Source: Octopus vulgaris (Eukaryota). Taken from it: 64,000 bases of DNA. The stretch spans positions 148,986,001 to 149,050,000 of the forward strand of contig OX597816.1 in the NCBI GenBank assembly GCA_951406725.2, written 5' to 3'. This document shows positions 7,993 to 62,268 of the stretch, in pieces; the first letter of the stretch is position 1, and each line of letters opens with the position of its first letter. The notes below the pieces were generated by a model. It saw only the letters and a program-made list of their open reading frames with translations, did not search any database and was not told where the DNA came from. The translations under genes and the position numbers were made by a program.

Positions 7993-10900
7993 TCAAGTAA
8001 GACCATCTGTTTTATATAAACCTGTATTTTTGACATTGGTAACTTGTGTTGATGATAATGGTAATCTGTCCCCTTCTGCTGTAAAAAGTCCTACAGGATA
8101 GACATCTTCATTGCTACCACAAATCACATTGTTGTCAATTAACTGAGTTGTTGTTGTTCGATTTAGTGATTTAGAAGAGTCTTCTCTTATGAGTCTTGAT
8201 TCAGAACACAGTTTTTCTTCACTATATGACACAGGAGATAAGTCAGAAACTGGAGAACTTTCAAATACATTACATTTTAATTTGGGTGATGTTCCATATA
8301 TCTTATTTGTTGTTGCTTTGCTATTTGTGGTATCTGAAAATGGTAAGCTAAAATCTGTAGTGGATATAGCTATGGAATTCAAAGGAGTGTTTAGCGCCTG
8401 AGAACTATCAGAAACTGAACTAGATGTTGAAGCTCTTTTATTCATTTGACCATATTTGTCATCATCAGGTCCTACAGGCTCGATTTTTACAGTGGGAAGA
8501 ATATCAGAACCAAATGGAGAGTTGCCACCGTTAGTGTCCAGAGATGCAGCCTCAAACTCTCGCTTAAAGATTCTGACTGTACCTTCTTTAAGCTGTGCTA
8601 ATTCATTCTGGGAAATCTCCTGCTTAATATCCTCAGTAGGAACAGCTGAAATATTAGATGGCATCTGCCGGGAATCATCAAATGCAGTGACTGTCGAAGC
8701 AAGTTGCTGACGTGTTCCACTTTGAAGATGAGCATCACACATATTTTGTAAATCTTTCATGTCTAATTGTTTTGCAATGACTTTTAGCTGTTGTAAAATA
8801 TTAAGATCAAGATCTAATAGTCCAGTATATATGTATTCAGCAAAAGCCATTAAAGCTTCTGTACTAACTACTTCAGGAAATTTTACTTCAAAAACCTGGG
8901 AAGAGATGTATGTACTAAATACTGAGAACAGTTTTGGAGACACAGCAGACAAAACAATTTTATGGACCTGAAATATAGTAAATGATAACAGTATGTTTAC
9001 AGCTTGCCAACAATACATTGATAGACACTTAAGAATCATGTTCATAAAATAGAAAAATGTAAGTTTGTTTTTCCAACTTTTACAAAAGCTACTGACTACC
9101 AAAAGCCATTGGAAGTTCATTTAAACTTCATTTATCTCAGAGAATTATTTCATTAATACTTTAACTAAATCAACTCCATTTTCTTTTCTGTAAAATATTC
9201 TATTGCATTTTAATGACTGAATCATAAAATTTTCTGATAATAATAAGACTCAATTGAATTCTATCTATAACTTCTGATAAAGGCATAAAAAATTTTATGA
9301 CTAATTAATTATAACAGATTTATCTAAAAATTGCACCAGTAAGAAAATACAAATCAACTAGACCTACCTTTAAGAAATATAGAGGGGAGTAGAATAAAGA
9401 ATATTGTGATATTAAGCACATTAGATCTTAAGCATAATCTTTTAGACTTACAAGCTAGATTTTTTAGTTATAATGATGATGACATTAGAAACAGTTTATA
9501 AATATGAAAAAGTTTACAACTGTATACTTACCATCACAGTAGATGAGCCATTGCTAATACTGGCATCACATAATTTCCTACTTCTCCACATAGATGCTAG
9601 GTTAGACATCACATAACGGTGATGACTAGTAACTAGCAATCTTTGTTTCGGTAAATCTGTTATTCTAATTATTGATTTAGATACAGTTGTTTGATTTGGA
9701 TCTTTCACCAGCTTTGATTTGGATGGAGTTATTTGAAATGGTGAAGTCAACACTTGAGCTGGTTTTGTAATATTTTGTGATGCTTGTGCTAAACTTGAAT
9801 CTTGCTGGACTGGCATTTTAGTAGTTAGATGTACACATTTTGAAGTCTTTGGAGATGATAAAGCACTGTCCATTTGCCTAAAATGAAAATTTGCAATTCA
9901 TTGAGAAGAAATATATATAAGAGAAAAACAATAACTCAACAGCATTGTCAAAATACCATTTTAGTTACCACATACCATCTGTCATGTGATTGTTGATTTT
10001 TTAACTTTTGATTCTGCAGGCGTTGCTCCCCAAGGTGCTGTGTTTCATTCTTTTTTTCTTGTATCATTTTCATCTGAGTATTGAGGAAGTGAGGCATGAT
10101 CAAAGAAAGATATAAAGAGATAAAAGAATAAAGATTTCAGTTCATTGGAAATAATTTGAACTATGACGAATTGATAAGTTATTTAATGCAAATGTCAATG
10201 ATAATTAAAAAGCTAACAAATAATATTTAATTTCCACATTGAAACTTTCACTAAGAAAAAATGGAATCTGTCAGCCACGTAAGTATATGGCAAATCCCCA
10301 AAAGCATTCAAAATCAACATGAACAGAGAATCTCTACAGAATTCCAAAATTGAAATGGGAATGGAGTTGGATGTTATACTTATCCTATTCTGAAATCTGA
10401 CATGGTGGTAGATTGTTATAATTTGACTTCAACATCAAATATATAGTAACTGCTGCCACAATTCACACAGACATTCTCTGGTAAATATTTTGCAGAAAAT
10501 TTTTCAACATTGTAATTCCTGATTGAACTTACAATTTACAATTGATCTGACAGCAGCTTCATTAAATTTGTATTTTTATCATATACACGGATTCCAATTT
10601 ATAATGGATAGTGATCCCTCAACACTGTATAGTGTACATGATACTGTATTGCAGGTGTGTATTTCTGTGTTGATGATAATATTAGATAATGAAGTACTGA
10701 GCATGCTTAGTTACTTGACCTGTCTGCTGATGTTTATCAATTGTACAGCTCCTAAACCTGATATGGAGATTCAAGGAAGGTTACAAAGTATGACTGAGCC
10801 TTAATTCATAATTTTATTGAGTTCATTTCTTATGAAAATTGTGGAGAGGCTGCAGTACTAAAAGTTTACATCACAAGAAACCTCATGTTATGAAGCTTCT

Positions 10901-12921
10901 TACGAGGGGTGTATGAAAAGTTTTGAGCCTAACCTAGAAACGGGGCTGCTAGGTAGCTGAAACAATTTTTTCTGGTAAGTACAGTCTTTTGGGAGTATTC
11001 TTGCTCATTTTCATGATTCTGATATTTTAATTTTTTTTGTTACAGATTTTTGAATAAGCAAGTGTCAAGGTTACAAGGAAAATAGAGAAAACTGAGTATC
11101 GTGCTGTCATAAAATACCTTTATTTGAAAGGCATGACTCCATCAGAAATCCATGAAGATATGGTGAGAACCTTAACAGACAGTGCTCCTTGATATGCAAC
11201 AGTCAAACTCTGGGTAAATAAATTCCAGTGTGGCAGGGAGAGTGTGGAAGATGATCCCACACCAGGGAGGCCTCCAACTGCAACCACCGAGGACAACATT
11301 GACCTTGCTCTTGGTATGATAATGCAAGATCATCGAATATCATGTCGTCAGATAGCTGAGAGACTGCGCATCTCAAATGAAAGAGCAGACAACATTGTGA
11401 CAAAAGAACTTGGGTTCTCAAAGGTTTCTGCTAGGTAGATCCCTTGCCTTTTGACTCCTGAACAGAAATGCATCCGGTGCACTTTGTTCATGAGTAATCT
11501 GGAACTGTTTGAAGCCGATGCAAAGAATTTTCTTGCTCGTTTTATTACTATGGACGAAAGTTGGGTTCATCACTACCAGCCTGAAACCAAAGAACAATCA
11601 AAGCAGTGGAAGCATACATCTTCTCCTACCCCAAAGAAGGCCAGGTCATTCTTTCAGCTGGCAAGGTCATGGCATCAGTTTTTTTGGATTCTCAAGGTGT
11701 CTTGCTGATCGATTACCTTGAAAAGGGTCACATCGTGACAGGGATGTATTATTCTCAGCTACTGTAATGCCTCCAGGAAGCAATCAAAGAAAAAAGGCCA
11801 GGAATGCTCACCAGAGGAATCCTTTTTCATCATGACAATGTTCCAGCCCATACCTCAGTGGTTGCCATAGCAACAATTCATGATTGTGGATACGAATTTG
11901 TTCCCCATCTGCCTTATTTGCCAGACTTAGCCCCCTCTGACTTTCATCTATTCCCAAAAATGAAAAAAGCCCTGGCTGGTCGCCATTTTGCCACTGACAA
12001 TGACGTCATAGACACTGTAGGAAGTTTCTTAGAGTCTCAAACAAAACAGTTCCTCTACGCCGGGATAATGGCACTTCAGCACCACTGGAGAAAGTGTTTA
12101 GCCATCAAAGGGGACCATGTTGAAAAATAAATCATCAGAAGTCTTGTACTATGTTTTGTTTTTTTGAGGCTCAAAACCTTTCAGACACCCCTCATAATAC
12201 ATTCATCCTACATATATCTTTGGTCTCTGAAATTAATTGCAATATCAATGATCTCACCAATAAATTCCATAAGCAGATCTTTGTTATATTTCTCCTATAG
12301 GTGTGTGATGCTTAAGAATGTATACCTGATATCTACCTTGAGACTTGTACGATAAGTATTTGTCCTCTGTTTCTGAGCTTCCAATCTTACCTGTCTTTGT
12401 CCTGCTGTTTCAGCCTGCTGACTAACAAATTGTCTTTGCCTTTGGTTTTGTAATCTTAATTGTTTTTCTTCTGTGGTTTCCCTTTTCTGTTTTTCTCTTG
12501 CCTTCTTAGCATGTTTGGTGAGATGGCCCAGTGATGTTAGTTTGGGATGCATAACTTCATTTGGTTGATCTTCATTCATGGAATTTCTTCGCTTTTGAAC
12601 TCTATTTCTCATATTCTGTAGATAAGTTTCCCTCTCCTCAGGATTCATGTTATTTCTTCTCTCCTGATCTTTGTCTCTTTTATTCTGAAGATAAAGTTCT
12701 CTCTCATGTTGGTCCATATTATTTCTTCTTTCACGATCTCTGTTTCTTCTATTCTGAAGATAAAGTTCCCTCTCCTCTTGGTTCATATTACTCCTTATTT
12801 TTTGCATACGTTCTCGAATACGGTCACGGACTGCTTGCCTCTCTTCTGTTGATAACCGCTGCCGTCGTCTTCTCTGTCTTTCTCTTGCTGCCGCTCTTTG
12901 TTGACTTATTCTCTCTTCCAT
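7993..12921 (-). CDS. STPR-repeat/BTB-POZ domain protein, copy A; join(12921-12337,10073-9976,9877-9532,8967-7993), about 667 aa
   Basis: GT-AG junctions with compatible phases (0,2,0) give one open frame. BTB motifs: LASMWRSRKLCDASI..VHKIVLSAVSPKL..AFAEYIYTG..IAKQLDMKDLQNMC. AATAAA on the minus strand about 60 nt after the stop. Confidence 0.85.
10903..12194 (+). mobile_element. Mariner (DD34D) transposon, full length, inactivated, in an intron of copy A
   Basis: About 28-bp TIRs (gaggggtgtatgaaaagttttgagcct), TA duplication at 10901-2 and 12195-6, empty site cttctTAatacat in paralogs. Motifs TMDESWVH, HHDNVPAH, PDLAPSDFHLF, with stops and a frameshift. Confidence 0.93.
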
Positions 12922-14239
12922 TTTTAAGAATAGTTGAATCTGTAAGCGATATAAGAAAAAAGCTCCCTTAGCCTGACAAACGCTGATGGTAAAAGCGTAT
13001 CAATATATAAAATACTAAAGCGAATTATATGTAATCAGTTTTAACTATGCTACAATGAATTTCTTCAGGAATATAATGCAACATTAAAATAGCTTTAGCT
13101 ACACTACATGCTTCCGTAAGAAATCTACTTGTGGAAGTCTACGGTCACATCCCACTATTTTTAATTTTCATAGGCTGTATGCAAATTGTGACCCAAAGAT
13201 AAAATTTGGGAATGTTATGCAAGTTTTTGTTTATTATTGAATATTCTCAATAATTATGAATTATTTCAGATGTATCGTATTTATGTATCCAGTGAAAAAC
13301 AAACAAAAAGAACCTCAAAGCTCCCACCTCCCGGGGATGTTGAAGTGAGCAATGCACAATGTGAAGTCGGTGAACTGTCAAATTGAAAACATAAAATTAT
13401 ATTGTATGAAAATGTATGATTATGTGTAGTATAACACAAAAATTATAAAAATTATTTGATAGTAAAATATGGTCACTATTTAAAGATGATTACATTTTTT
13501 AATGTTTTCCGTGAAGTTTTCACAGGTTGAGGTAGTTTATATAAATCTGTAGAATACGTCAGGTATATTTCATATGATAGATCGAAAGAAAGAGAGTGAA
13601 AGAGAAACAGAGAGAGGGACAGGCATTTATTAATAATATAACTATATATTAGGTTATTGTATGGAAGTATATGGGAAATACATGTTACAGAACTTTCCAA
13701 TATTATAGATAGATAATATATTGTCCTTTTCTTTTTACAAAATCAAGGGAAACAACTCGAATTAAATCCTGACTTATTTCCCTTGGTGTGACAAACACAG
13801 ACGGTATAAGCATATTATAATATAGAAGATGGTCTTCACTTGCACAATATTTGTCTTTTTAAAGGCAGTGTAAGGGATTAGCACTCACTTGCATTAGATT
13901 CAAAATCTGAACTCCTAAATTCGATAAATATATATATATAGCAGGAGTGCCCGGCGTTGCTAGTGGTATGAATGCTTCATCATTCTAAAAACACTTATAT
14001 TCTAGTCTAACAACTAGCGCTACCAAAACTTTTTTGAAAAACATACAGAATTCCATGCCAAAATGTACCAAAATTCACAAAAATATACACAATATTTTTG
14101 AAATGTCACGACCACAAAAATAGAGAAAAATACCAGTTTTTCAACATCTTTGTTCTGGCGAATGGCGTGTTGTTCTTTGTTTTCTGCAGACTGCACAGCA
14201 GCATTTGCTGTAGCATACCTGGCAGCAAAAGTTTTTTCT

Positions 14240-14729: not shown

Positions 14730-16617
14730 TAGATATTTCGCTACCAGGCATGGCGAATGGCAAGATGTTCTTCATTCTCCGCAATTCTTACAGCATTCCT
14801 GGCACAGCAAATGACGCGCTGTTCTTCATTCTTTGCAGTTCATGCAGCAGGGGTTGCTATAACTGTAGCATTCCTGGCATGGTGAATGGCATGCTGTTCT
14901 TTGTTCTCTGCAACTCACACAGCAGCAGTTGCTATAGCATCTTGTATGACAAATAATATGCTGTGACTGAATCAGGTTAGCGTATACTGTAGCTATTAAC
15001 GAAGCATTTCTGATCTGGCGACTGCTATACTGCTCTTTGCTTTCCATGGCTCTTGCGGTGACTGTGCAACCAGCATTTTGTGAATGTCTTCATGCAGTCT
15101 AGTGTGAGGATTCATTTGCTCTCCTTCTCTTCGATGTCTCAACTGCAGCAGTTTTGCAACCAATACGGGCTCTTTTCTTAGGTGGCATTATCTCAGAGTT
15201 TAGAAGCTTCAATTACAAAATGCAGATGTAGCAAAAGTAAATTTAAATACACAGAGGGCAAAAATTTCAGAGGGAGAAAACGAAGAAAATCAGTTGGAAA
15301 CTGCAGAAGTGTTTGGAGAAAAACCCATGTAAAACAGTTTTTCTAGATGGAAGTTAGTGTGTGTGTGAGTGAGTGAGAGAGAGACAGGGTGAAAGAAACA
15401 GACATAGACTAAAAGAGAGGAACTATTACAGAGGGTGAGAGAAAATATCAGTAAGCAACAGAAATAGAGAATGAGATGAGACAGAGAAGAGAGAAACAAA
15501 GAGAGAGAGAAAAGGAAGAGAATCGGTTGAAAATTGCAGAGGTTTTTAGAGAAAAACCCATGTCATCATCATCATTTAGCGTCCACTTTCCATGCTAGCA
15601 TGGGTTGGACAGTTCAACTGGGGTCTGTGAAGCCAGAAGGCTGCATTGGCCCAGTCTGATCTGGCAGTGTTTCTACGGCTGGATGCCCTTCCTAACGCCA
15701 ACCACTCCGTGAGTGTAGTGGGTGCTTTTTAGGTGCCACCCGCAGAGGTGCCAGATGGAGCTGGCAAACGGCCAGGGACGGATGGTGGTTTTTACGTGCG
15801 ACCGGCACGGAGGCCAGTCGGGGTGGCGCTGGCAATGGCCACAATCGGATGGTTCGCTTACTTGTCACCGGCACTGGTATCACAGCTGCAATTTCCATTG
15901 ATGTTGATCGACTTCGATTTTGGTTCTGCTTTCTGATATCTGATTTGATTTGATTTTGATATTGATTTTCACTTGCCTCAACGGGTCTTCACAAGTGGAG
16001 TTTTGTGTCCCAAGAAGGAAAGGTATGTATAAGTCGACTGACTACATACCAGGTAGAGGCCACGGGTTATGGTTTCACTAGTCTTGCCGGGTCTTCTCAC
16101 GCACAACATACTTCCATAGGTCTTGGTCTCTAGTCATTTCCTTGGTGAGACCTAAAGTTCGAAGGTTGTGCTTCACCACCTTGTCCCAGGTTTTCCTGGG
16201 CCTACCTCTTCCACAAGTTCCCTCAACCGCTAGGGTGTGGCACTTTTGCACACAACTATCTTCAGCCATTCTTGTCACATGACCATACCAGCGCAAACGT
16301 CTCTCTTGCACACCACAACTGATGCTTCTTAGGTCCAACTTTTCTCTCAAGGTACTTACACTCTGTCGAGTATGAACACTGACATTACACATCCATCGGA
16401 GCATACTGGCTTCATTTCTTGCAAGCTTACGCATATCCTCAGCAGTCACAGCCCATGTTTCACTACCATGTAGCATGGCTGTTTGTACACATGCATCATA
16501 CAGTCTGCCTTTTACTCTGAGCGAGAGGCCTTTTGTCACCAGCAGGGGTAAGAGCTCTCTGAAATTTGCCCAGGCTATTCTTACTCTAGCAGTTACACTT
16601 TCAGCACACCCACCCCC

Positions 16618-16831
16618 GGGTGCGACCTGCGATCGCGGCTTCGGTTGCATGTATTAGCTCTAGAATTGCCACAGTTATCCACTCTCCTCGCGGTGGAAGA
16701 ATACGGTCCCGAGGATTAGGTCCGGTTCCTGAGCCATTCGCGGTTTCACCATTCGTTTACGGCATGAACTTACACTTGCATGGCTTAAGCTTTGAGACAA
16801 GCATATGACTACTGGCAGGATCAACCAGGTA
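16618..16831 (-). rRNA. 18S rRNA 5'-end fragment (non-functional copy) embedded in the LINE
   Basis: Minus strand from 16831 reads TACCTGGTTGATCCTGCCAGTAGTCATATGCTTGTCTCAAAG..TTAAGCCATGCA..GTGAAACCGCGAATGGCTCA..GGATAACTGTGGCAATTCTAGAGCTAATACATGC, the universal eukaryotic SSU 5' end. Confidence 0.95.
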
Positions 16832-16982
16832 TCACCGACGTTTCAAAAGAACGAAGCGCGGCAGCTCGGGAAGCAGCCGCTGCCGATCGGTAAAAATGAG
16901 AAGAAAAGGAATCGGCGGGCCGAAAACAGAGGCGTGAGCGCTCACGAGTTCGGCCGCCGTTCGTATACGCGCACGCCTCCTT
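16832..16982 (-). other. Probable rDNA 5' external transcribed spacer fragment
   Basis: GC/CpG-rich non-LINE sequence directly upstream of the 18S 5' end. Confidence 0.7.
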
Positions 16983-18425
16983 CTCCAGTTTTTCTCCCTG
17001 GAACGTGGTAGAAGTTGGTCTCTGCACATTTTCAGTGTTTATTGCTCCTGAGCATCTGCCACAAACAAAAACTATTTTCCTAGTTAGCCTTCCTTTGACA
17101 TTGCTGCACCTTTTATGTGTCCATAGCTTACACTTGGTGCATCTTATAGAGTTTCTACCTACACCTTTTCTACAGATCGAGCAGGGCCATCTACCTGAAG
17201 GCGTTTGTGATTGGTCTACCTTCCTACTTATTAGGACTTTGGTTTTGGCTAGGTTGATTCTAAGGCCCTTCGATTCTAAACCTTGCTTCCACACCTGAAA
17301 CTTCTCCAGTTCTGATAGTGACTCAGCAATTAGAGCAAGGTCATCAGCATAGAGGAGCTCCCAGGGACATCCTGTCTTGAATTCCTCCGTTATTGCCTGG
17401 AGGACTATGATAAATAGGAGGTGACTGAGGACTGAACCTTGGTGGACCCCAACCTCTACCCGGAATTCTTCACTGTACTCGTTACCAACCCTCACCTTAC
17501 TAGCAGCGTCTCTGTACATGGCTCGCACAGCTCTCACTAACCATTCGTCTATCCCTAGTTTCCTCATTGACCACCAGATAAGGGATCAGGGGACCCTGTC
17601 GAAGGCTTTCTCCATGTCAACAAAAGCCAGGTACAGGGGCTTATCTTTGACTAGGTATGTAAAATACCATTTTCCTTGTTTCTTGCTTCACGCAGCAGCT
17701 CTGGGCAGAATGTTATAGTTCATTACCATCCTTGGTACATAAGTAATTGTGGGTATGAAGTTTGATGAAAATGCATACGTACTACACACACAGAGACATC
17801 CTTTGTTTTTATATGTGTGTATATATATATATATCATGATGAAGCTTCTTTGCTGGAGTCGACATGAGAAAATAATTAAAATATGATTTTAAACCCTGCC
17901 AAGATTGACCCATACCAATTTAGTAATGAATTTGATTCCAAATTTGTGATTTTGTATCAAATGTAGAAATGTTGATTTTTTCTTTATTTAGCACAAAGAC
18001 AATTGGATATTTTTACAATATTTCATTTTAGATGTATTCTTTAGTTAAGGAATTCAAATTCTGAATTTGATAAAACCACTGTCTTTTAGCCTAATCTGGT
18101 GATGACTTCACGTTTATTTTGTAAATAATGAAAAGATTGGAACAATTGGGTAGTTTACTTATTTTGAAGTCTTAGAATAAACTATATATTTTCGTGTTTC
18201 ATTGAAGCACGTTGTTAAATTATTCTTATTAATTCTTATTTTTATAAAGTCCCTAAGGGTTCGCATTTTCTTCCCAGAAAGTTTATTATAAGAAACAAGT
18301 TCATTACACAGTTATTCATACCTAATATTTTTTTAAAACATATTTTGCGTAATGCCAAGTTTTTCTAAATTTTCTATGCATTATATTTAATTCAGATATA
18401 TCATCACATATGTAGAAGATAGTTA

Positions 18426-27681: not shown

Positions 27682-30600
27682 TCAAGTAAAACCATCTGTT
27701 TTATATAAACCTGTATTTTTGACATTGGTAACTTGTGTTGATGATAATGGTAATCTGTCCCCTTCTGCTGTAAAAAGTCCTACAGGATAGACACTTTCAC
27801 TGCTACCATAAGTCACATTGTTGTCAATTAACTGAGTTGTTGTTGTCCGATTTAGTGATTTAGAAGAGTCTTCTCTTATGAGTCTAGATTGAGAACACAG
27901 TTTTTCTTCACTATATGACACAGGAGATAAGTCAGAAACTGGAGAACTTTCAAATACATTAGATTTTAATTTGGGTGATGTTCCATGTATCTTATTTGCT
28001 GTTGCTTTGCTATTTGTGGTATCTGAAAATGGTAAGCTAAAATCTGTAGTGGATACAGCTATAGAATTCAAAGGAGTGTTCAGAGTCTGAGAACTATCTG
28101 AAACTGAACTAGATGTTGAAGCTCTTTTATTCATTTGACCATATTCGTTATCATCAGGTCCTACAGGCTCGATTTTTACAGTGGGAAGACTAACAGAACC
28201 AACTGGAGAGTTGCTATCCTTAGTGTCCAGAGATGCAGCCTCAATCTTTTGGTCAAAGAGTCTAACTGTATCTTCTTTAAGTTCTGCTAATTCATTTTGA
28301 GAAACCTCCTGCTGCTTAATATCCTCAGTAGGAACAGCTGAAATATTAGATGGCATCTGCCTGGTATCATCAAATGCAGTGACTGTTGAAGCAATTTGCT
28401 GACGTGCTCCACGCAGAAGATGAACATCACACATATTTTGTAAATCTTTCATGTCTAATTGTTTTGCAATGACTTTTAGCTGTTGTAAAATATTAAGATC
28501 AAGATCTAATAGTCCAGTATACATGTATTCAACAAAAGCCATTAAAGTTTCTGTGCTTACTTCAGGAAATTTCACTTCAAAAAACTGAGAAGAGATGTAT
28601 GTACTAATTACTGAGAACAGTTTTGGAGACACAGCAGACAAAACTATTTTATGGACCTGAAATATAGTAAATGATAACAGTATGTTTATAGCTTGCCAAC
28701 AATAGAATGACAGACACTTAAGAAACATGTTTATAAAGTAGAAAAATGTAGGCTTATGTTTGTCCAATTTCTACAAAACCTATTGACTACCAAAAGTGTC
28801 AACTTCACTTATCTCAAAGAGTCATTTCATTAATACTTTAATTAAATCAACTCCATTTTCTTTTTCTGTAAAATATTCTATTCTATATCAGTAAGCAAAT
28901 GTTTGAGAAAAAGTTATTTTCAATGATTGAATCGTAAAACTAAAGGCTACACCTATGTTTAAGAAATATAGAGGGGAGTAGAATAAAGAATATCTTGATA
29001 TTAAGCACATTAGAAATTAAGCATAATCTTTTAGACTTACAAGCAAAATTTTTTACCTATCATGATGATGTCATTAGAAACAGTTTATAACTGTGAAAAA
29101 GTTTACAACTGTATACTTACCATCACAGTAGATGAGCCATTGCTAATACTAGCATCACATAATTTTCTACTTCTCCACATAGATGCTAGGTTAGACATGA
29201 CATAACGTTGATGACTAGTAACTAGCAATTTTCGTTTCAGAAAATCTTTTTTCCTAATTATTGATTTAGATACAGTTGTTTGATTTGGATTTTTCACCAG
29301 CTTTGATTTGGATGGAGTCATTTGAAATGGTGAAGTCAACACCTGAGCTGGCTTTGTAATATTTTGCGATGCTTGTGCTAAACTTGAATCTTGCTGGACT
29401 GGCATTTTAGTTGGATGTACACATTTTGAAATCTTTGGAGTTGATAAAGCACTGTTCATTTGCCTAAAATGAAAATTTGCAATTAATTCAGAAGAAATGT
29501 ATAAGAGAAAAATAGTAACTCAATAGCATTGTCAAAATACCATTTTAGTCATCACATACCATCTGTCATGTGATTGTTGATTTCTTAACATTTGATTCTT
29601 GTGTTGCTTCTTCAAGTGTTGCTCCCCAAGGTGCTGTATTTCTTTCTTTTTTTCCTGTGTCATTTTCATCTGAGTGTTGAGGAAGTGAGGCACGATCAAA
29701 GAAAGAAATAAAAAGATGAAAGAATAAAGATTTCATTTCAATGGAAATAATTGAGACTGTGATGAATGGATAAGTTATTTTAATGAAAATGTCAATGATA
29801 ACTGAAAATTCTTGTTTATAAGGCTGACAAATAATGCTTAATTTCCATATTGAAACTTCCACTAAGAAAAAATGGAATCTGTCAGTCACATATGTCTATA
29901 GCAAATCTCAAAAGCATTCAAAATCAATCTGAACAAAGAATCTCTACTGAATCCTAAAACTGAAATGAGAATGGAGTTCGATGTTATACTTATCCTATTC
30001 TGAAATCTGACATGATGGTAGCATGTTGTAATTTGACTTCAACATCAAATATATAGTAACTGCTGCCACAATTCACACAGACTTTCTCTGCTAGATTTTT
30101 TGCAGAAAATTTTTCAACATTGTAATTCCTGATTGAATTTACAATTAATTCAGTTGTATTTTTATCATATACATTAATTTCAAAATTATACTCAATTTAT
30201 ATGGATAGTGATTCCTCAACACTTTATAGTGTACATGATACTATATTACAGGTGCATATTTTTGATAATACCAGATAACGAAGTACTGAGCACACTAAGT
30301 TGGCTTGTCCACTGATGTTTATCAGTTGCACAGCTCCTAATCCTGACATGGAGATTCACGGAAGCATACAAAGTATGACTGAGCCTTAATTCATGATTTT
30401 GTTGAGCTCATTTATCATCATCATCATCGTTTAACGTCCGCTTTCCATGCTAGCATGGGTTGGACGGTTCGAACGGGGTCTGAGAAGCCAGGAGGCTGCA
30501 CCAGGCTCCAGTCTGATCTGGCAGTGTTTCTACAGGTGGATGCCCTTCCTAATGCCAACCACTCCGTGAGTGTAGTGGGCACTTTTTAAGTGCCACCAGC

Positions 30601-31080
30601 ACAGGTGCAAGGTGAGGCTGGCAATGGCCACGATCGGTTGGTGCCAATTCTTAATGAAAATTGTGGAGAGGCTGTAATACTAAAAGTTGACATCACAAGA
30701 AACTTCATATCATAAACCTTCTTAATACATTTATCCTACATATATCCTTGGTCTCTGAAATTAATTGCAATATCAATGACCTTGCAAATAAATTCCATAA
30801 GCAGATCTTTGTTATATTTCTCCTATTGGTGTGTGATGCTTAAGAATGTATACCTGATATCTACCTTGAGAGTTGTACGATAAGTTCTTGCCCTCTGTTT
30901 CTGAACTTCTAATCTTGCCTGCCTTTGTTCCACTGTTTCTGCCTGCCGAAGAGCAAATTGTCTTTGCCTCTTATCTTGCAATCTTAATCGTTTTTCTTCT
31001 GTGCTTTCCCTTTTCCGTCTTTCTCTTGCCCTCTGAGCAGATTTGGTGAGACGGCCCAGTGATGATCGTTTGGTACGCAT
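27682..31080 (-). CDS. STPR-repeat/BTB-POZ domain protein, copy B; join(31080-30865,29669-29560,29463-29121,28656-27682), about 547 aa
   Basis: Same splice sites and phases as copy A, open frame, 2 STPR-like repeats plus BTB. Confidence 0.85.
30415..30645 (-). mobile_element. RTE 3'-tail copy / RTE-derived SINE in an intron of copy B
   Basis: Matches 15563-15850; (CAT)n end; empty site at about 42583 in copy C. Confidence 0.85.
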
Positions 31081-35778: not shown

Positions 35779-36384
35779 ATACTGCTGTAACGGGAATAGT
35801 CGCTTCTTGCACTTTTAGGGTGCAACTGGTGCTTTCTCTATTTCCATTGCTTAAATTTCCAGATTCTACCAGTCAAAGAACTCAAAACGCAACAGTAAAA
35901 ATATATATTCTTTATTGTTCTTATAACAGTACGAAATAAGGTGTTATTTGGTTCCGCTTGGTATGGATGTGTCAGAGCTGAAACTTTAACGCTTGTAAGA
36001 ATTTTTACAAGTGCAACAGCAAACTTAGCTGGTCTTCTATGGCATCCGTAGGGAGCGAAGATAATGTGGTCTGCAACAATGTCTGGTTGAAAGCCTTCTG
36101 TCTTGTTGCTTACTGCTATGCGTATCCCTGTACCTTGTAAGTAGGCTCTCCCTTGCCTATCAGCTAATGACGCATCAGCAAAATCCCTTTTTCCGGTCTT
36201 CGCGCATGCGCGAGAGGGCTCTTCCCCTCTGCCTTTCCTGAGGACGTTGCGCGCGCGCGCTGTTGGATAGCGTCACTACACTGCAATTGAAAATATTTAA
36301 AAGATAAAAGGGAAAAAAAGAAAAAAACAAAAACAATTTACCACCTTGAGTTGAAAAGTTGGGGGTGCTGGGAAACCTCTCTAA

Positions 36385-37830
36385 TGCCTATTGAGGCACA
36401 CCAGCTGCGTTGCCATGGGTGATGGCAAGGCTGATGCGCTGGAACAGCCAAGTGATCTCACAAGCTTCAACAGTCATGTCTGCAAGGCGAGTTGCCAGTG
36501 AAAACAGGTATCTTGCAGTTAGTGGTGTGACCCCACCAAACATCTCAAACACCACAGGATGGAAAATGTAGCTGGCTGACAGATCGTGGTATTTCAGAAT
36601 TTTCTTCCACTTGGCTGCTGAAGCTGTAGATCTCAACCTGACCACAGCTTCCAGGATGTGAGAAGAAGCAAAGGAGTCGTTAACTGTGACATCTCAGACA
36701 AGGCATCTTCCTAGCGACCAGGGGCACAGGGTGAGGCTGTCACGTCTCTTCCCATCACATCTGGACAATCCAGATGGTGGGGATGTTTGCCCGGGACTAG
36801 TTCCTCTTGAGCATCAAGTTCGACTCTGTATGATGCACGAAGCGACCAGCATTCAGGTGGCTAGAAAGGGCATGGAGGTGTGTGGAGTCGACTCCACAGG
36901 CCACAACAACAGATCAAACCCATGCATATGTCAGCTCCCACTCTGAGGGCAATTGAGACACAAGCTGAGTAGGCCACCAACATTAGCCACAGGGATGGCA
37001 TCAATCCAGTCACCTGAGTATTTGACGCTAGCAGACAGTAAGCGGCATCTAGAAACTTGGTCCGACTGGTTGAAGAGGGAGTCAAAGGTGGCCTTCAAAA
37101 TTATGTTGTCCCAAGCTTTCTGATTCTGACAATCCTCAACCTTCTCAGGAGCAGACAAGCCCAATTCCCTCCATTGTTGGAGAACTTCATCCAACTCTCT
37201 GTTGGAACTGGTCCATGTTGGAGAGGACAGGATGTTGCTCACCAGGGTGGGGCAGGTGGAGGAAAGGAAGCAGCGGAGAGAGAGGGATGAACACTTACAA
37301 AGACCCTGACCTCCAAATTGCTTGGGCAATGCAGCCTGATCGCAGGACCTTGTAGAGACTTACTACATGTGATGGCATTCACCCAGGGTGGGTTGAGCCG
37401 GCTTCTTCTCTGGACCTGACGGCATCACGATCCATGGCGGCCCACGCTCGATGGTCCTGTGTGAGGTCACTGCAGATAGCGAACCATTCGCGGTTCCATC
37501 TGCGCAGACTGACCACCTGCAGAGCTGAGAGTTTGGAGAGGTTCTCCTTTATCGTCATTGCCCAGGTCTTCAGCTGCCCACCTGTGCATTCGCGCCAGCT
37601 GGAAAGTGGAGTGGGAGGAGGACGTCACAAATCAGCTCTCTTTGAACACCGGGCCGCATGGCCGAACCACCTTAAGTGCCATTGTAGAAGCACTGAAGGG
37701 AGAGGTCGGAGATTCAGGCGATGACGAAGACCGACTGTAGGAACCTGATCAATGCGTCAGCAGCGAAAAATGCAGCAGAGACAGACATTGTCGAACACCT
37801 CCAGCCTTCGCTGACCAACTACCCTCATAG
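36385..37830 (-). mobile_element. Degraded non-LTR retrotransposon with restriction-like endonuclease (CRE-like), C-terminal part
   Basis: PKQFGGQG, SGDWIDAIP, DGKRRDSLTLCPW..GRCLV-DVTV, KILKY, HPVVFEMFG, LFQRISLAITHGNAA. Confidence 0.7.
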
Positions 37831-39729
37831 GCCATGCTTCACAACCATAGAGGAAGAAAACATGGATAGTCTTTCAGAAAATAAAGACTATGAAAATTGT
37901 CCTTATTTAGTACATCATTTGCTATGTTTGGAAGGCATTGATAAACTGAGGAGTTAAATATATATATAAAGACATCAATGATTAAGATTAACTTCAGTTT
38001 CCAACCACAATTATGTAGTCAAAGACCTAGCACCCTAATATTAGAGCCATTAAGCCTTCATAATATATTTTGTAATGTTGTAAATTCTAAGCATTAGAAG
38101 GGTCAGTGTTAGGAACGACATCCAGCCATAGAAACCAAGCCAAAACCGATTATTCAACATCCCCAGGCCTTACCAGTTCTTGTCAAGCCATCCCACCCAT
38201 GCTAGCATGGACAACAGGCATTAAATAACAATGATGACGATGATGGTGGTGATCTTTTTGTATATTAAAATAAACAATTTAATACAAATATATATTGATA
38301 TATACATTTTTATGTAAATTTATATCAAATAAAAAATATCTTCAGTGCCATTTATACATAAGGCTATCTTACCAGATAGTGGCTCTCATCCTAATGTTCT
38401 TCATAATACATCTTATATATAAATATGATATTTTTTTAACACAGATTGCCATTTGTCAAAATGTGTATTATACCATACAAATAAGAAGATATTTTTTAGA
38501 ACACTTCTAAAAACAAATGTCAATTATCCTTGACAAAGATAAAGAAATTGACCAAGTTTTTAACGATACTCCTATTGATGATTGCCCATTTACAGAGACA
38601 GAGTACGTGAGAGCATGGACATTCCTAAAGACTGGTGAGAGCTGTGGTAAAGATGGAGTAGTTCTTAGAGTAGTGGACTATGTTTTAGTCGACAGCATTA
38701 TATTAAGTTACCTCAAAAGCAGAGAGGGATCTATTTCAGTTCCATTCTTAGCAAGAACTGTAACAGGATGTATGTCAACCATTTTCAGCCTGTTAAAACC
38801 TCTGCTAAGGTTTTACAGAACAAATTTCAAGAGAAACAGACAGCCATAAACATATCTTGATTCTGAGTAGGATCATGAAATGAGTGAGGAACAGAAAGCT
38901 CCCAATAATCATAAGTTTCATTGGTTTTAAGAAAATATTTCTTACACTTCATTGAGGAGAACTTGTCTTCATTCTGAAAGGTATGACAATCCTGAGAAGC
39001 TATCGCAACCAATCAAGTCATGCATGAAGGCTCAAGTGAAGATCAACTTGCTCGACAATGAAATGAATGTCTCCAACATCTGCACCGCTTATGCAGCAGG
39101 GAGATAGTCATGTTCCCTCCCTCTCTATTAATCAAAGATATTATTGAAAATTATGTAGAGAAGCACTGAGGTTACATGCAGCCAAGAAATGGAATTCATT
39201 ATGAGTCAGATATTAGTTATTGGTCTTGGCTGTGTCAACATCTCACTTCCCTTAAATACTGCTGTAAAATCCCACATGCTGTTAATACTGAATACATAAA
39301 AGTATAACTATTCTTAAAGAAAACCACTGATCTGAACTTCAAACACCAATGATACAGTCATGGGTAACAGCAATGGAGAAGCCCTCCAGGTAGTAAAGGA
39401 TTCCAATTCTACAGCGCTTAGATCTCATCTTTGTTTGGCGACTTCTAGGCAGCAGCACTACCACCACTGGTATTGTTAAATCACCAAACTCCTAGTAGTA
39501 CAAAGGTAATAAATGAGGATAACAACAGGTTACATCTAGCAGCAGTAGTCAATAAAGAACAAGTTTATGTCAACAATATTGAAATTTATCAACAATCTCT
39601 CACAAGACAAAAAACTCTTCTGTATTTTTCATTAGAAAATAAAACAAGGCAGGTATTTCAAAAATTATTTATTACAAAATTAAAGCTCAATTTATCTGTG
39701 TATGTGTGTACTGAAAACTATTTCTGATA

Positions 39730-41822
39730 TCAAGTAAGGCCATCTGTTTTATATAAACCTGTATTTTTGACATTGGTAACTTGTGTTGATGATAATGGTA
39801 ATGTGTCCCCTCCTGCTGTAAAAAGTCCTACAGGATAGACACCTTCATTGCTACCACAAATCACATTGTTGTCAATTAACTGAGTTGTTGTTGTTCGATT
39901 TATTGGCTTAGAAGGGTCTTCTTTTATGAGTCTAGATTGAGAACACAGTTTTTCTTCACTATATGACACAGGAGATAAGTCAGAAACTGAAGAACTTTCA
40001 AATACATTAGATTTTAATTTGGGTGATGTTCCATATATCTTATTTGCTGTTGCTTTGCTATTTGTGGTATCTGAAAATGGTAAGCTAAAATCTGTAGTGG
40101 ATACAGCTATAGAATTCAAAGGAGTGTTTAGTGCCCGAGAACTATCTGAAACTGAACTAGATGTTGAAGCTCTTTTATTCATTTGACCATATTCGTCATC
40201 ATCAGGTCCTACAGGCTCGATTTTTACAGTGGGAAGAATAACAGAACCAACTGGAGAGTTGCCACCGTTAGTGTCCAGAGATGCAGCCTCAATCTTTTGC
40301 TCAAAGAGTCTAACTGTATCTTCTTTAAGTTCTGCTAATTCATTTTGAGAAACCTCCCGCTTAATATCCTCAGTAGGAACAGCTGAAACATCAGATGGCA
40401 TCTGCTTGGTATCATCAAACGCAGTGACTGTTGAAGCAATTTGCTGACGTGCTCCACTCAGAAGATAAGCATCACACATATTTTGCAAGTCTTTCATGTC
40501 TAATTGTTTTGCAATGACTTTTAGCTGTTGTAAAATATTAAGATCAAGATCTAATAGTCCAGTATATATGTATTCAGCAAAAGCCATTAAAGTTTCTGTA
40601 CTAACTACTTCAGGAAATTTCACTTCATAAAACTGAGAAGAGATGTCTGTACTAATTACTGAGAACAGTTTTGGAGACACAGCAGACAAGACTATTTTAT
40701 GGACCTGAAATATAGTAAATGATAACAGTATGTTTATAGCTTGCCAACAATACATAGATTGACACTTAAGAGTCATGTTCATAAAACAGAAAAATGTAAG
40801 TTTGCTTTCCATACTTTTACAAAAGCAATTGACTACCAAAAGTCGTAAGTCACTGGAAGTTGATTTTAAACTTCATTCATTTCAAAGAGTTATTTCATTA
40901 ATACTTTAATTAAATCAACTCCATTTTCTTTTTCTGTAAAATATTCTATTGTATTTCAATGACTGAATCATAAAATTTTCTGATAATAATAAAACTCAAT
41001 TGAATTCTATCTATAACTTCTGATAAAGGCATAAAAGATTTTATGACTAATTTATTATAACAGATTTATCTAAGAATTGCACCAGCAAGAAAATACAAAT
41101 CAACTAGACCTACCTTTAAGAAATATAGAGGGGAGTAGAATAAAGAATATTGTGATATTAAGCACATTAGAAATTAAGCATAATTGTTTAGACTTGCAAG
41201 CAAAATTCTTTGCTTGTCATGATGATGACATTGGAAACAGTTGATAAATGTGAAAAAGTTTACAACTGTATACTTACCATCACAGTAGATGAGCCATTGC
41301 TAATACTGGCATCACATAATTTCCTATTTCTCCACATAGATGCTAGGTTAGACATGACACAATGTTCATGACTAGTAACTAGCAATTTTTGTTTCGGTAA
41401 ATCTGTTCTTCTAATTATTGATTTAGATACAGTTGTTTGATTTGGATATTTCACCAGCTTTGATTTGGATGGAGTTATTTGAAATGGTGAAGTCAACACC
41501 TGAGCTGGCCTTGTAATATTTTGCGATGCTTGTGCTAAACTTGAATCTTGCTGGACTGGCATTTTAGTTGGATGTACACATTTTGAAATCTTTGGAGTTG
41601 ATAAAGCACTGTTCATTTGCCTAAAATGAAAATTTGTAATTAATTCAGAATATATAAAAGAAAAATAGTAACTCAATAGCATTGTCAAAATACCATTTTA
41701 GTCATCACATACCATCTGTGATGTGATTGTTGATTTCTTAACATTTGATTCTCGTGTTGCTTCTTCAAGTGTTGCTCCCCAAGGTGCTGTATTTCTTTCT
41801 TTTTTTCCTGTGTCATTTTCAT
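39730..41822 (-). CDS. BTB-POZ domain protein, copy C, lacking the STPR exon; join(41822-41713,41620-41278,40704-39730), about 475 aa if started at the linker-exon ATG
   Basis: Three downstream exons are intact and in frame, and the linker exon begins ATG AAA ATG. Paralog homology breaks at about 42672 and resumes at about 50413 with no repeat exon between. Confidence 0.75.
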
Positions 41823-42670: not shown

Positions 42671-45600
42671 TCTATATCTATAAAACAGTCCTTGGATGAA
42701 AATTGTATGCACATTTTGCTTTGATGGTTAATGGCGGCCAAACCGAGGCTTGGATCAAGTTGAAAATTGGCAAGGATACTAAATGCATGGTGAGGATGAG
42801 ACCTGTGATGGTTAAAATTCACAAGCTATAAAGATGTGGTTGCTATGGCAAAAAGAGTGATTTTTTTATCGATTCAAGGGGCCCAGAGCCCCTCTAGGTT
42901 TGTGCGATTGGCTTTAAATGCCCAGTGGCATGCACTGCAGGCTGTTGTGCTTAATAAACATACATTTTGTCACGAAATTCCGGCTACTAGGGAACGATTT
43001 TTCATTGTGAAAAAATGATTGCTTTTTGCCCTCATTTTCTTTTTAATTTCTTACTACTTACATTGTTGGCATTTTCAGAAAAAAAATTATATCTACATGT
43101 AGCCCTTCAGAAGGGCTATCATGCACATTTTTCTTGACGCGAAATCTTGCTTTCAAAGTCAAAAACACTTAACAATTAAACAAAAATGTTGAATATTTTC
43201 TGTCATGTACAGCTTAATATAACATCATCGTTGTGAGCTGCAACTTTGCCACAAGAGAATTATCAATTTTTTTCACGGCTGCATAAACTAATTAAGCCAC
43301 AGTTCTAGCAATCTTATGAAAGCTGCCGATGACATGTGTTTTCTTCATTGAAAAGTCATTTGGATGTAAAATACATGTTTTTTTCAAAAAAAGAGAAAAA
43401 CAAATAATGATCACGTGTTAAAAAAATTGGGGAATCTAATGAGACAAGATTTAAGTCTCAATCTAGAAAGATGTGTTTGCATTGGTCAAAAGAGTACTTT
43501 TTTCGATTTAAGGGGGCTCTCACAACAGCCCAGTGACCGTCATGATATAGTCGCCAGAGTCTTTCACCTCAAATTAAATCTCCTGATGTTCTTGCTGAAA
43601 AAGGAGAAAATCTATGGACCTCTGAATGTATAGATGTATACTGTGGAGTGGCAGAAGCAAGGTCTTTCACACAAACACATTCTCATTTGGTGTAAGGAAA
43701 AAATCAAACCTGCAGATATTGATAGAGTTATCAGTGTTGAGCTTCCAGATCCCACCACTGATCCACAACTTCACAACATTGTTTTGACCAACCTTCTGCA
43801 CGGACCCTGCGGCCCTCTTAACCCCAGAAAAGCATCTATGGAGAACAACAAATGCAGCAAGCAGTACCCCAAGGACTTCGTGAGCGCAACTTGCATAGAA
43901 ACCCACAGCTATCCCATCTACCAATGGCACACTCCAGATTTTGGCAGCATTTCTGTTGAGGTGAGGAAGGACAGTGTCACATACTTCACTGACAACAGCT
44001 GGGTTGTGCCTTACAGGCCCCAACTTGCAAAAATTTTCAATGCACACATCAATGTTGAGAGCTGCACCTCCATCAGGAGCATCAAGTACATCAACAAAGG
44101 CAGTGACATGGTGGTGTTGATGAAGACAGCGGAGTGGATGAAGATGATGTGAAGACAGTGGAGTTGATGAAGATGATGTGAAGACAGCGGAGTTGATGAA
44201 GACAACGTGAAGACAGCGGAGTGGATGAAGACGACATGAAGACAGTGGAATGGAAGGGGTGATGTGAAGACAGCGGAATGGAACGGACGACATGAAGACA
44301 GTGGAGTGGATGAAGACAACGTGAAGACAGTGGAGTGGTTGAAGACGACGTGAAGACAGCGGAGTGGATGAAGACGACGTGAACACAGTGGAATGGTAGG
44401 GGTGACGTGAAGACAGCGGAATGGAACGGACGACATGAAGACAGTGGAGTGGATGAAGACTACATGAAGACAGCGGAGTGAATGAAGATGACATGAAGAC
44501 AGCAGAGTGGATAGAGATGATATTAGACAGGCAGAGGATGAAAGTGAGGAAGAGTGAATGGGAGTTGATTGGAGGGGAAAGTGAATGGATAGGGCGTTGC
44601 GTTGGCTGGCGGCATGTGTGGAGTTGTGTTTGATCATTGAAGTGCTACTTTATAGATGACATTTTTTGTTTTACAAGATTGCTGCAAAACCAACGTACAG
44701 TTAACCATGAGTAAAAACGTCCTGCATCAGGTTTAGTCCAACGACTTGAAGTGATTGACCTTGTGCTTTATTGATACTCATTCCAAAACACACTTTAATT
44801 GGAAATTGTTTGTGTGTAAACTCGAATGGACAGTCGGATGGACTTAGACTTAGGGGAGTTAGCAATTTTGTCATGCCTGCAGATAAGAATGGTTGTGGTG
44901 AGAATGCGAGTGCTGATGGCTGTGATGATAAGTCTTGTTCTGTTGCACAGTTCTGGTGGGTCGATGTTCCTAAGCAGCATAACTGGAGCACCGACTTTGA
45001 GTCTGAGGTCATGGGAAGGAAGCCCGGAAGGTTGTTGGGTGTTGAGGAATTCAGCAGGATAGTTGATAGCGTCATAAGCATTGTTTGTAGTGTCGATGGA
45101 CTTAAATGACACTTTGTTCCCAGGAATGCAGTTGAGGAGTTTTTGATTCATAGTATCGACAGTTGCGTTGTGTGTGGCTAAAATGGCTCGACCTGTAGCC
45201 AGCTGGGATTATGAAAGTTTGCTTCAAGGTCTGGAAAAACTGCCAAGATTAAATCTTCGATGCTTTCAACAAAATTTCCAAAGGGGAGATGAATATGGTC
45301 TGCATCGATGGCAGGTGCAGTTCCGTTTCCAACATTGAGCAGCTGTCTGGAGAATTCTTCAGAATCTGCATCCCCATGCAAATGCACTCTCATGTTGGTG
45401 GTGAGGTGAAGTTTCTCAACATGGCGCCAAAGGTGAGACGATTTGATGCATGCTTTCACTTCATCTGCTCTTGTGCTGCTGGTGATTACAGGAAGTGTCT
45501 GTTGGAAATCTCCAGCCAAAAGTACTGTCACACCACCCATCAGTCTAGCATTTCGACGCAGGTCTTGAAGAGTCCGATCAAAAGCCTCAAAAGCTGACTT

Positions 45601-48415: not shown

Positions 48416-49570
48416 CTAGCTTAAGGTGACCCGCTCTACGCGCGGGTAAGAGTGTGGTTGTTACTTTCTGTTGTAAAAAGCACCATCCGAACGTGGCCGA
48501 TTGCAGCGCCACCTTGACTGGCTTCTGTGCCGGTGGCACGTAAAAAGCACCAACCGATCGTGCCGGCGGCACGAAAAAAGCACCCACTACACTCACAGAG
48601 TGGTTGGCATTAGGAAGGGCATCCACCTGTAGAAACACTGCCAGATCAGACTGGAGCCTGGTGCAGCCTCCTGGCTTCCCAGACCCCTGGTCAAACTGTC
48701 CAACCCGTGCTAGCACGGAAAACGGACGTTAAACGATGATGATGATGATGATGATTCTCCCTCTTTGTTTCTCTCTCACTTTTCCACTCTCTTACTTTTC
48801 TTTTCTCTCGGACTCTCCCTCGCTTTCTCTTACTCTGTATCTTTATCTATCTCTCTCCCATTTATAAACAACAAAAGATCTTGAGTAAGTTGAGAAATAA
48901 AATATTTTGAAAGATCAATCATAAATATCAGGCAGTGACAACGGAAAGGTCTGCTTCAAGGCAGACAGCAAAACACTAACATTTAAAAGGGACAGACGAA
49001 CTTGCAAGCTGAATAAAAATAATAAAATATTGGAAACCAAAGTTTGAAGGGATAAATCTGAGGATAGTAGAGTCACCATGGCTGGCGTTTCTTAACAACA
49101 GACAGCAACGTATTGACAGTTTAATGGCTGGCGTAAAATTTTGAAATTGATGTAAAAGAAAATTCCTAAACACCAAGTTTTGAAGTGATTCTTTCTCACG
49201 ACAATAGACTCACCATGGCAAGCATTCAAAACTTCTTCATCATGGACAGCAACACATTGACGATTAAAAGGCTGGCGCAAATTTTTTAGCCTGATGTAAC
49301 AGAGAATTCCTAAACACCCGCTCCTTTAAATTTTAATCCCCTTCCAGCCCCATTTAGACCCCTTTTCACATTTTGGTTAATATAACCCGATTTCATTCGG
49401 GTCTACTGGGGCCACATTTTATAAGATGAGGAATTTTGTCCTAGAGGTCACGCCTTTCATTTGAGGAAAAAAATAGTTGTCATGCAAGCTTGCCACCACT
49501 TTTAACATAGGTGTGCATATTTTCAGCTCAACCGACCACATAATGCACACATTATATATATATATACGTA

Positions 49571-61189: not shown

Positions 61190-61412
61190 GTGTGGCACGT
61201 AAAAAGCACCCACTACACTCACGGAGTGGTTGGCGTTAGAAAGAGCATCCAGCTGTAGAAACTGCCAGATCCGACTGGAGCTAGGTGCAGCCTTCTGGCT
61301 TCCCAGATCCCCGGTCGAACCGTCCAACCCATGTTAGCATGGAGAACGGATGCTAAACGATGACGATATATGTATATATATATATACATATATATATATA
61401 TACATATGTATA

Positions 61413-61444
<32 letters not shown>

Positions 61445-62268
61445 CATATATATACATACATATATATATATACATATATATACATACACTAGCAGTATCG
61501 CCCGGCGTTGCTCGGGTTTGTAAGGGAAATAACTATAAAGCATTTTTAGAGAGTTATAGCCAAAAAATGGGAAAAAAAATTATGGTAAATTTTTTTTTAG
61601 TTAAAAAGGTCGAGTTGCGTCCCCTAGACAGTCTGTGGTTTGTGTTTCTGATTCTCGACCCCATGTCGAATTTATCGATTTTTTTCAGAACTGGGGGAAC
61701 TTTTCAAAATTTTCGCTGCGTTAGTTTTGAATTATGACATTGGGCTATGTGTGTGTCAAGTTTCATCAGAATCGGTTGAAAGCCGTGGTCAGGGTGAGGG
61801 TACAAGCTGACAGACACACAGAAACACACACAGACAAACTGCCGTTTATATATAGAGAGATATATACATGTATGTATATATATATGCATATATATATATA
61901 TATGCATATATATGTATGTATATATATATATGCATATATATGTATGTATATATATATATATGCATATAAAAAGCACATAAAAAGCACCATCCGTTCGTGG
62001 CCGTTTGCCAGCTCTGTCTGGTACCAGTGCGGGTGGCACGTAAAAAGCACGCACTACACTCACGGAGTGGTTGGCGTTAGGAAGGGCATCCAGCCGTAGA
62101 AACACTGCCAGATTTGACTGGGCCTGATGAAGCCTTCTGGCTTCACAGACCCCAGTAGAACCGTCCAACCCATGCTAGCATGGAAAACGGACGCTAAACG
62201 ATGATGATGATGATGATGATATGCATATATATGTATGTATATATATGCATATATATGTATATATATAC

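What the first reader, a model, noticed from the sequence alone, without database searches (positions are those of the whole stretch)
16618..16982. Pre-rRNA (5'ETS + 18S 5' end) embedded inside an RTE LINE reading frame
Seen: about 365 bp of rDNA-type sequence sits between LINE codons ..FQGEKLE and GGGCAESV.., in the same orientation as the LINE, with no obvious TSD. The conserved RTE F.YLG segment expected there is missing, so it is a replacement. Inference: a double template switch during target-primed reverse transcription (LINE RNA to pre-rRNA and back). The ETS part implies unprocessed nucleolar precursor or rDNA as donor. Known LINE chimeras usually carry the cellular RNA at the 5' end, so an internal one is unusual.
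Basis: partly seen in the sequence, partly recalled or inferred. Interest (0 to 1): 0.72.

Follow-up and report, generated by a model that had tools for sequence, protein, structure and literature searches.

The report
Ribosomal DNA patch inside octopus retrotransposon
A 370-letter piece of a ribosomal RNA gene replaces a short stretch in the middle of a dead jumping-gene copy in an octopus, most likely as a patch used to repair a later DNA break, which is a known and fairly ordinary kind of genomic scar.

Summary
Observation confirmed. On the minus strand a 5'-truncated, TSD-flanked Octopus RT-PHD LINE (15560-17660) is split by about 370 bp: about 155 bp of CpG-rich putative 5'ETS plus 18S nt 1-217 (Rfam E 1.4e-27), in LINE sense. 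It replaces 14 codons (84 of 86 cleanly aligned homologs). There is no TSD or tail of its own. The 3' junction shares GGG with both partners; the 5' junction is blurred and holds a 6-mer repeated from 11 nt upstream. Microdeletion, microhomology and size fit class 2 templated insertions at double-strand breaks. Other dispersed 18S pieces occur in the runs. I favour later break repair (0.55) over a double template switch during integration (0.25). Sense orientation and a wholly transcribed donor are the only points for the switch. Two runs carry this LINE's 5' end with its flank, but none of 24 listed pieces spans an rDNA junction, so an assembly artefact is unlikely (0.07), not excluded. Dating was inconclusive. 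Tripartite and rRNA-LINE chimeras are published; a return to the same LINE was not found in my searches. This scan noted a related 18S-SINE chimera in another genome.

The parts
15560..15563 (.). Target-site duplication of the whole LINE, copy next to the 3' tail (ATGT)
   Evidence: Same 4-mer at 17657-17660; a paralogous uninterrupted site at about 15314-15334 reads through the 4-mer into the A-run that starts the right flank
15564..15575 (-). LINE 3' tail of four trinucleotide repeats, no poly(A)
   Evidence: Sequence; 389-423 contigs per run have loose ends at 15563
15564..16617 (-). 3' part of the LINE: C-terminal 179 codons (16617-16081) and 3' UTR
   Evidence: 95% to Octopus vulgaris P0126 over 39 aa, 68% to P0003 over 178 aa; 3' end repeated at 5 other places in the window with E below 1e-50
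16615..16617 (-). GGG microhomology shared by 18S and LINE at the 3' junction
   Evidence: 18S-bearing contigs of X2 match to 16615 and then run on as rRNA (7 contigs); the LINE needs a Gly codon here, which fixes two of the three G; the third is likely
16615..16831 (-). 18S rRNA nt 1-217, 3'-truncated
   Evidence: Rfam RF01960 from model position 1; alignment with other eukaryotic 18S
16832..16986 (-). Putative 3' end of the 5' external transcribed spacer, 150-155 bp, with a hairpin at 16929-16979
   Evidence: Adjoins 18S nt 1; GC 0.59, CpG o/e 1.61; inverted repeat I7; paralog X2 record 14 covers 16858-16981 with 8 other letters and 5 gaps. Identity as ETS is inferred
16980..16987 (-). Blurred 5' junction; 16981-16986 repeats a LINE 6-mer lying 11 nt upstream
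   Evidence: LINE loose end at 16987 (X3, 17 contigs); 6-mer found in 0.9% of shuffles of the 40 nt upstream, a post hoc test
16987..17658 (-). 5' part of the LINE: second half of RT plus PHD finger, 5'-truncated, one stop codon and a 3-bp deletion
   Evidence: Pfam RVT_1 E 9.8e-12, PHD E 4.3e-05 just under its cut-off; 85% to P0126 over 220 aa; stop; deletion at 17303
17657..17660 (.). Target-site duplication at the 5' truncation, two bases overlapping the LINE
   Evidence: Family matches to 17658; X3 record 24 (17617-17800) bridges it with 41 letters inside; X2 record 16 starts only 22 letters inside

Best explanation
Two events. First a 5'-truncated RT-PHD LINE was inserted by ordinary target-primed reverse transcription (shown: tail, truncation, 4-bp TSD). 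Later a double-strand break inside this dead copy lost 42-46 bp and was closed by end joining that captured a 370-bp piece of the rDNA unit spanning the ETS-18S border (shown: deletion, insert, GGG overlap, no TSD or tail; inferred: order of events and pathway). The patch may have been an rDNA fragment or a cDNA of pre-rRNA; the sequence cannot tell. The locus has decayed neutrally since and has no function.
For: Deletion of 14 codons. 3-nt overlap at one junction and a short locally repeated 6-mer at the other. Class 2 templated insertions are described with microdeletion, microhomology, no TSD and no poly(A), 73-414 bp in experiments (PMC5110952); rDNA is named as a donor in yeast break insertions (PMC11724301). 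Dispersed rDNA pieces are not rare here: 5 of the 24 listed pieces are other 18S 5' fragments at depth 15-60 with 9-15 differences, and at least two ETS-like paralogs with their own indels appear in all three contig runs, so some will fall into LINEs by chance (inference). Collinear, same-age LINE halves need no special step. The tripartite chimeras in PMC2104539 join three different RNAs, and its fungal junctions showed no microhomology.
Against: The insert is in LINE sense and lies wholly in the transcribed part of rDNA, as an RNA template predicts (each only about twofold, inference). No allele with this LINE but without the insert was shown. The insert looks aged like the LINE: 2 of 3 listed ETS differences are CpG transitions and an 18S helix has 3 G-U pairs of 5, each U in a TpG, so it is not clearly younger. 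The repeated 6-mer test is post hoc and other parses of that junction exist.
Confidence: 0.55

Rival explanations
1. One event: during integration the LINE reverse transcriptase left the LINE RNA, copied a pre-rRNA fragment and returned to LINE RNA about 45 nt further upstream (double template switch), or the three RNA pieces were ligated before copying.
For: Sense orientation; donor within the transcript; one TSD pair around the whole. Double switches are published (PMC2104539). 28S/LINE-1 chimeras have a median rRNA piece of 269 nt and 83% are in sense (bioRxiv 10.1101/2025.02.02.635956). Insert and LINE are aged to a similar order.
Against: Needs a return to the same template almost in register, which none of the passages I read describes; there the RNA sits at the 5' end. 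The outer TSD says nothing about the insert. Conserved 18S blocks show no clear lesion in 102 nt where 1.9-5.1 are expected at LINE divergence (P of none 0.15-0.006; less telling because these blocks are CpG-poor and 18 nt were my search pattern), a mild lean to a younger insert.
Confidence: 0.25
2. Later trans-retroposition: a LINE enzyme nicked the existing copy, primed on pre-rRNA through the GGG overlap and integrated a tailless cDNA with a target-site deletion.
For: Tailless retropseudogenes of structured RNAs are primed internally (PMC5322556, passages); 3'-truncated 18S and overlap at the 3' junction fit; sense by chance.
Against: Those elements are defined by 8-35 nt TSDs and were tied to L1; here there is no TSD and a 42-46 bp loss.
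Confidence: 0.1
3. Assembly chimera between two high-copy repeats.
For: None of 24 listed pieces (of 347,590) spans either rDNA junction; in X3, which carries the LINE 5' end at this site, no contig depth is left for the window's letters at 16891, 16897 or 16935, and none in X2 at 16935. No protein with either junction peptide was found.
Against: The ETS part is not matched by any high-depth contig at 88% likeness (depth 14-191 at 16891 against 40,000-334,000 in the 18S bin), whereas a splice with collapsed present-day rDNA should match it; the insert carries decay marks; by subtraction X2 has depth 52 with the window's letter at 16891 and 94 at 16897, near its single-copy depth of 44. The tool warns that contigs show presence, not absence, and that a filter drops records. 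The window has no N and resolves four tandem paralogs.
Confidence: 0.07
4. The chimera is a propagated non-autonomous element copied from another locus.
For: It keeps the LINE 3' end needed for mobilisation.
Against: Total depth over the ETS part equals only a few copies and those seen differ by indels; family contigs run on as intact LINE at 16987.
Confidence: 0.03

Closest known systems
Class 2 templated sequence insertions at double-strand breaks (Onozawa and Aplan, PMC5110952; parts 1-2 of 4 read)
   Same: Distant donor, 73-414 bp range, microdeletion, microhomology, no TSD, no poly(A); donors often transcribed
   Different: Here the donor is the rDNA ETS-18S border, the site is inside a LINE, the host an octopus; germline polymorphism not tested
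Tripartite LINE chimeric retrogenes (Gogvadze et al. 2007, PMC2104539; parts 1-3 of 5 read)
   Same: Three same-sense segments inside one TSD pair, LINE at the 3' end
   Different: Those join three different RNAs; here both outer parts are collinear pieces of one LINE, and one junction has microhomology
[quoted passage not shown]
   Same: rRNA fragment of a few hundred nt fused to a LINE, mostly in sense
   Different: rRNA at the 5' end, mature 28S; the main text has no occurrence of '18S', 'ETS' or 'tripartite'
Tailless retropseudogenes (PMC5322556; passages only)
   Same: 3'-truncated structured RNA copy without tail
   Different: Those have 8-35 nt TSDs; this has a target deletion and a precursor 5' extension
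Octopus RTE LINEs such as RTE-2_OV (PMC9115989; passages only)
   Same: Single-ORF octopus LINE with a zinc finger beside RT
   Different: Identity with that family not testable: five motifs were not found in 4 of its 8 supplementary files, the other 4 were not searched; the paper calls its finger C2H2, this one scores as PHD

Membership tests
Class 2 templated insertion (break-repair patch) | Insert copied from a distant locus | tested here: met
   18S nt 1-217 plus upstream spacer
Class 2 templated insertion (break-repair patch) | No TSD and no poly(A) at the insert | tested here: met
Class 2 templated insertion (break-repair patch) | Microdeletion of the target | tested here: met
   14 codons missing
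Class 2 templated insertion (break-repair patch) | Microhomology or added letters at junctions | tested here: met
   GGG overlap at 16615-16617 (two G certain); 5' junction ambiguous
Class 2 templated insertion (break-repair patch) | Pre-insertion allele existed (LINE without insert at this site) | tested here: inconclusive
   X2 and X3 hold the LINE 5' end; contigs cannot show absence of the insert
Tripartite LINE chimeric retrogene | All parts in the same sense | tested here: met
Tripartite LINE chimeric retrogene | One TSD pair around the whole | tested here: met
   4-bp TSD; shorter than the 10-20 bp in the paper and equally expected if the insert came later
Tripartite LINE chimeric retrogene | 5' part is a copy of a different cellular RNA | tested here: not met
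   5' part is the same LINE, collinear
Tripartite LINE chimeric retrogene | All parts inserted at the same time | tested here: inconclusive
   Divergence ranges overlap; no orthologous assemblies available
Tailless retropseudogene | TSD of 8-35 nt around the RNA copy | tested here: not met
RTE-clade LINE | RT domain; relatives with endonuclease and RT in one frame | tested here: met
   RVT_1; P0007, 57% identical, has endonuclease, RT and PHD in 1071 aa
RTE-clade LINE | Short tandem-repeat 3' tail instead of poly(A) (feature recalled) | tested here: met
   15564-15575
RTE-clade LINE | RT phylogeny places it in RTE | not tested
5' external transcribed spacer | Matches the species' rDNA unit upstream of 18S | tested here: inconclusive
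   No cephalopod rDNA in two metagenome scans; only low-depth paralogs laid

The most novel reading that the evidence does not exclude
A LINE reverse transcriptase jumped from its own RNA onto a nucleolar pre-rRNA fragment, copied it to a 5' end 150-155 nt upstream of 18S that marks an unmapped octopus pre-rRNA cut site, and jumped back onto its own RNA almost in register: a LINE-RNA-same-LINE tripartite retrocopy, showing that the enzyme keeps hold of its first template through a detour.
Probability: 0.2. Interest if true: 0.55.

Novelty: new member of a known kind. Interest (0 to 1): 0.3.

Why it matters
On the favoured reading it is one more germline repair scar and matters little, beyond preserving an older version of the octopus ETS. 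If instead it was made during integration, it would be a rare fossil of a return template switch and of LINE complexes meeting unprocessed rRNA in an invertebrate. The two readings are cleanly separable by comparing the orthologous locus across Octopus assemblies.

Tried and rejected
No whole genome is held, so no copy search. No second copy of the LINE body lies in the window for a DNA-level empty-site alignment. Two metagenome scans for cephalopod 18S gave 0 and 9 loci; 3 of the 9 were distant eukaryotic 18S at 77-79%, none cephalopod. Raw-read run X24 laid only 36 of 12.9 million reads, none on 18S, so it was set aside. Junction-spanning frames: 0 of 4 found by exact look-up; region searches gave 1 of 38 and 7 of 9 candidates, all with the intact LINE segment; this is weak, since such peptides are rarely annotated. 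Folding of the insert is not better than shuffles (z -1.37). Dating by divergence was inconclusive: only 40 of 123 difference rows were shown and none in the 18S part. Literature searches for a LINE-rRNA-LINE return switch: searches found none; subscription papers and bioRxiv supplements are not covered and may hold such cases. Searches gave nothing useful. Look-ups of earlier findings by sequence, other words and place were empty.

Full report
Observation. The minus strand carries a LINE frame that ends at FQGEKLE (16983) and resumes at GGGCAESV (16617). Between them Rfam finds eukaryotic SSU rRNA from model position 1 at 16831 (100.1 bits, E 1.4e-27). The best named homologs are Octopus bimaculoides P0002 (84%) and Octopus vulgaris P0126 (85% and 95% to the two halves), so the host is an octopus. 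Of 120 homologs, 86 aligned to both ends of the gap; 84 have 14 residues there and 2 have 15.

The LINE. It is 5'-truncated in RT, has a PHD-like finger, one stop, a 3-bp deletion, a trinucleotide tail at 15564-15575 and a 4-bp duplication at 15560-15563 and 17657-17660. A paralogous uninterrupted site about 240 bp away shows the same 4-mer once. X3 record 24 bridges the 5' end into the flank with 41 letters inside the LINE; X2 record 16 starts 22 letters inside, below the tool's 31-letter bar. So the LINE insertion is real in organism A and probably in B. Of 36 LINE difference rows shown, 32 are majority differences in all three contig runs, 1.9% of 1723 bp. This is a lower bound, since 83 of 123 rows were hidden; counting all 97-103 places gives an upper bound near 6%. 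At 0.0036 substitutions per site per million years (PMC13282606, passage) that is roughly 5-15 million years (inference). The halves do not differ (2.0% vs 1.6%, p 0.72). The clade name RTE was not tested by a tree.

The insert. Loose ends place the last LINE match at 16987 and the last 18S match at 16615. The insert is 369 bp plus a GGG shared with the LINE's glycine codon, and 42-46 bp of LINE are gone. At the 5' junction a 6-mer repeats LINE sequence 11 nt upstream (0.9% of shuffles, post hoc). Short local templated inserts are typical of polymerase theta end joining (recalled), but the junction can also be read as a 2-nt addition or as spacer sequence, so this is weak. The 150-155 bp before 18S are CpG-rich (o/e 1.61) and have low-copy paralogs; I call them ETS by position, without an annotated reference.

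Is it real? No listed piece spans either rDNA junction, but only 24 of 347,590 pieces were shown, the tool filters records, and contigs drop rare variants. Against reality: by subtraction X3 has no depth with the window's letters at three ETS sites and X2 none at one. For reality: X2 has depth 52 and 94 left at two sites, near its single-copy depth of 44; no high-depth contig covers the ETS part at 88% likeness, which a splice with present-day rDNA should give unless filtered; and the insert shows decay (2 of 3 listed ETS differences are CpG transitions; three G-U pairs in a 5-bp helix, all at TpG, read as decay by inference). I put an artefact at 0.07.

Timing. The ETS part looks old. The conserved 18S blocks differ from both outgroup sequences at 2 of 102 positions, neither a clear lesion (one matches the Rfam consensus, one keeps a GNRA-type loop, recalled); 1.9-5.1 lesions would be expected at LINE divergence. 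These blocks are CpG-poor and 18 nt were my pattern, so the lean to a younger insert is mild. Dating does not decide.

Mechanism. A break in the resident LINE, repaired with a captured rDNA or pre-rRNA-derived patch, explains the deletion, overlap, lack of TSD and tail, size and collinearity. These are the features of class 2 templated insertions (PMC5110952, parts 1-2 of 4), which may be RNA-derived; rDNA is a donor in yeast (PMC11724301, passages). Five of the 24 listed pieces are other low-depth 18S 5' fragments, so such pieces recur in these genomes. The double-switch model has precedent (PMC2104539, parts 1-3 of 5) and gains from sense orientation, but the published cases join three different RNAs and the fungal junctions lacked microhomology. 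rRNA-LINE chimeras in mammals carry 28S at the 5' end (bioRxiv 10.1101/2025.02.02.635956, passages), and that paper separates sequential from joint insertion by orthologous comparison, the test missing here. I assign 0.55 to later break repair, 0.25 to one-event switching or ligation, 0.10 to later tailless retroposition (PMC5322556, passages), 0.07 to artefact and 0.03 to a propagated chimera.

Novelty. Searches found no LINE-pre-rRNA-same-LINE structure, but the library lacks most subscription papers and bioRxiv supplements were closed. An unchecked note of this scan describes an 18S-SINE chimeric retrocopy in another genome; it shows only that similar things turn up. Verdict: real-looking single-locus curiosity, new member of a known kind, interest 0.3; the return-switch reading stays open at 0.2.

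Noticed in passing
window 7993-9120, 27682-28770, 39730-40872, 56350-57474 (minus): Four tandem copies of a BTB/POZ-domain gene exon (Pfam BTB), duplicated blocks 87-93% alike; the LINE lies between copies 1 and 2 and is not in the other units.
   Followed up: partly
window 43634-46757: Helitron remnant: Helitron_like_N (weak) and PIF1 helicase frames, interrupted by a 29-bp tandem array at 44121-44542.
   Followed up: partly
window 52731-53231 (minus): Endonuclease fragment of another LINE (Exo_endo_phos E 1.7e-4).
   Followed up: no
window 30414-30644, 48482-48755, 61192-61425, 61973-62214, 62848-63051: Short copies of this LINE's 3' end, 78-91% alike; depth there is about ten times that of the LINE body, suggesting a SINE that shares the tail.
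   Followed up: no
window 16683-16761: One X2 contig of depth 4656 matches 18S on both sides of this stretch but not within it: possibly a second, divergent 18S type at many copies.
   Followed up: no
window 12295-12999 (minus): 234-codon Arg/Gln/Glu-rich open frame with a 69-bp repeat and no Pfam match, probably part of a repeat.
   Followed up: partly
window 35974-37867 region (tblastn hit 37415-37867, minus): Distant LINE C-terminal match (24%) in a GC-rich stretch at 36-38 kb: another LINE family.
   Followed up: no
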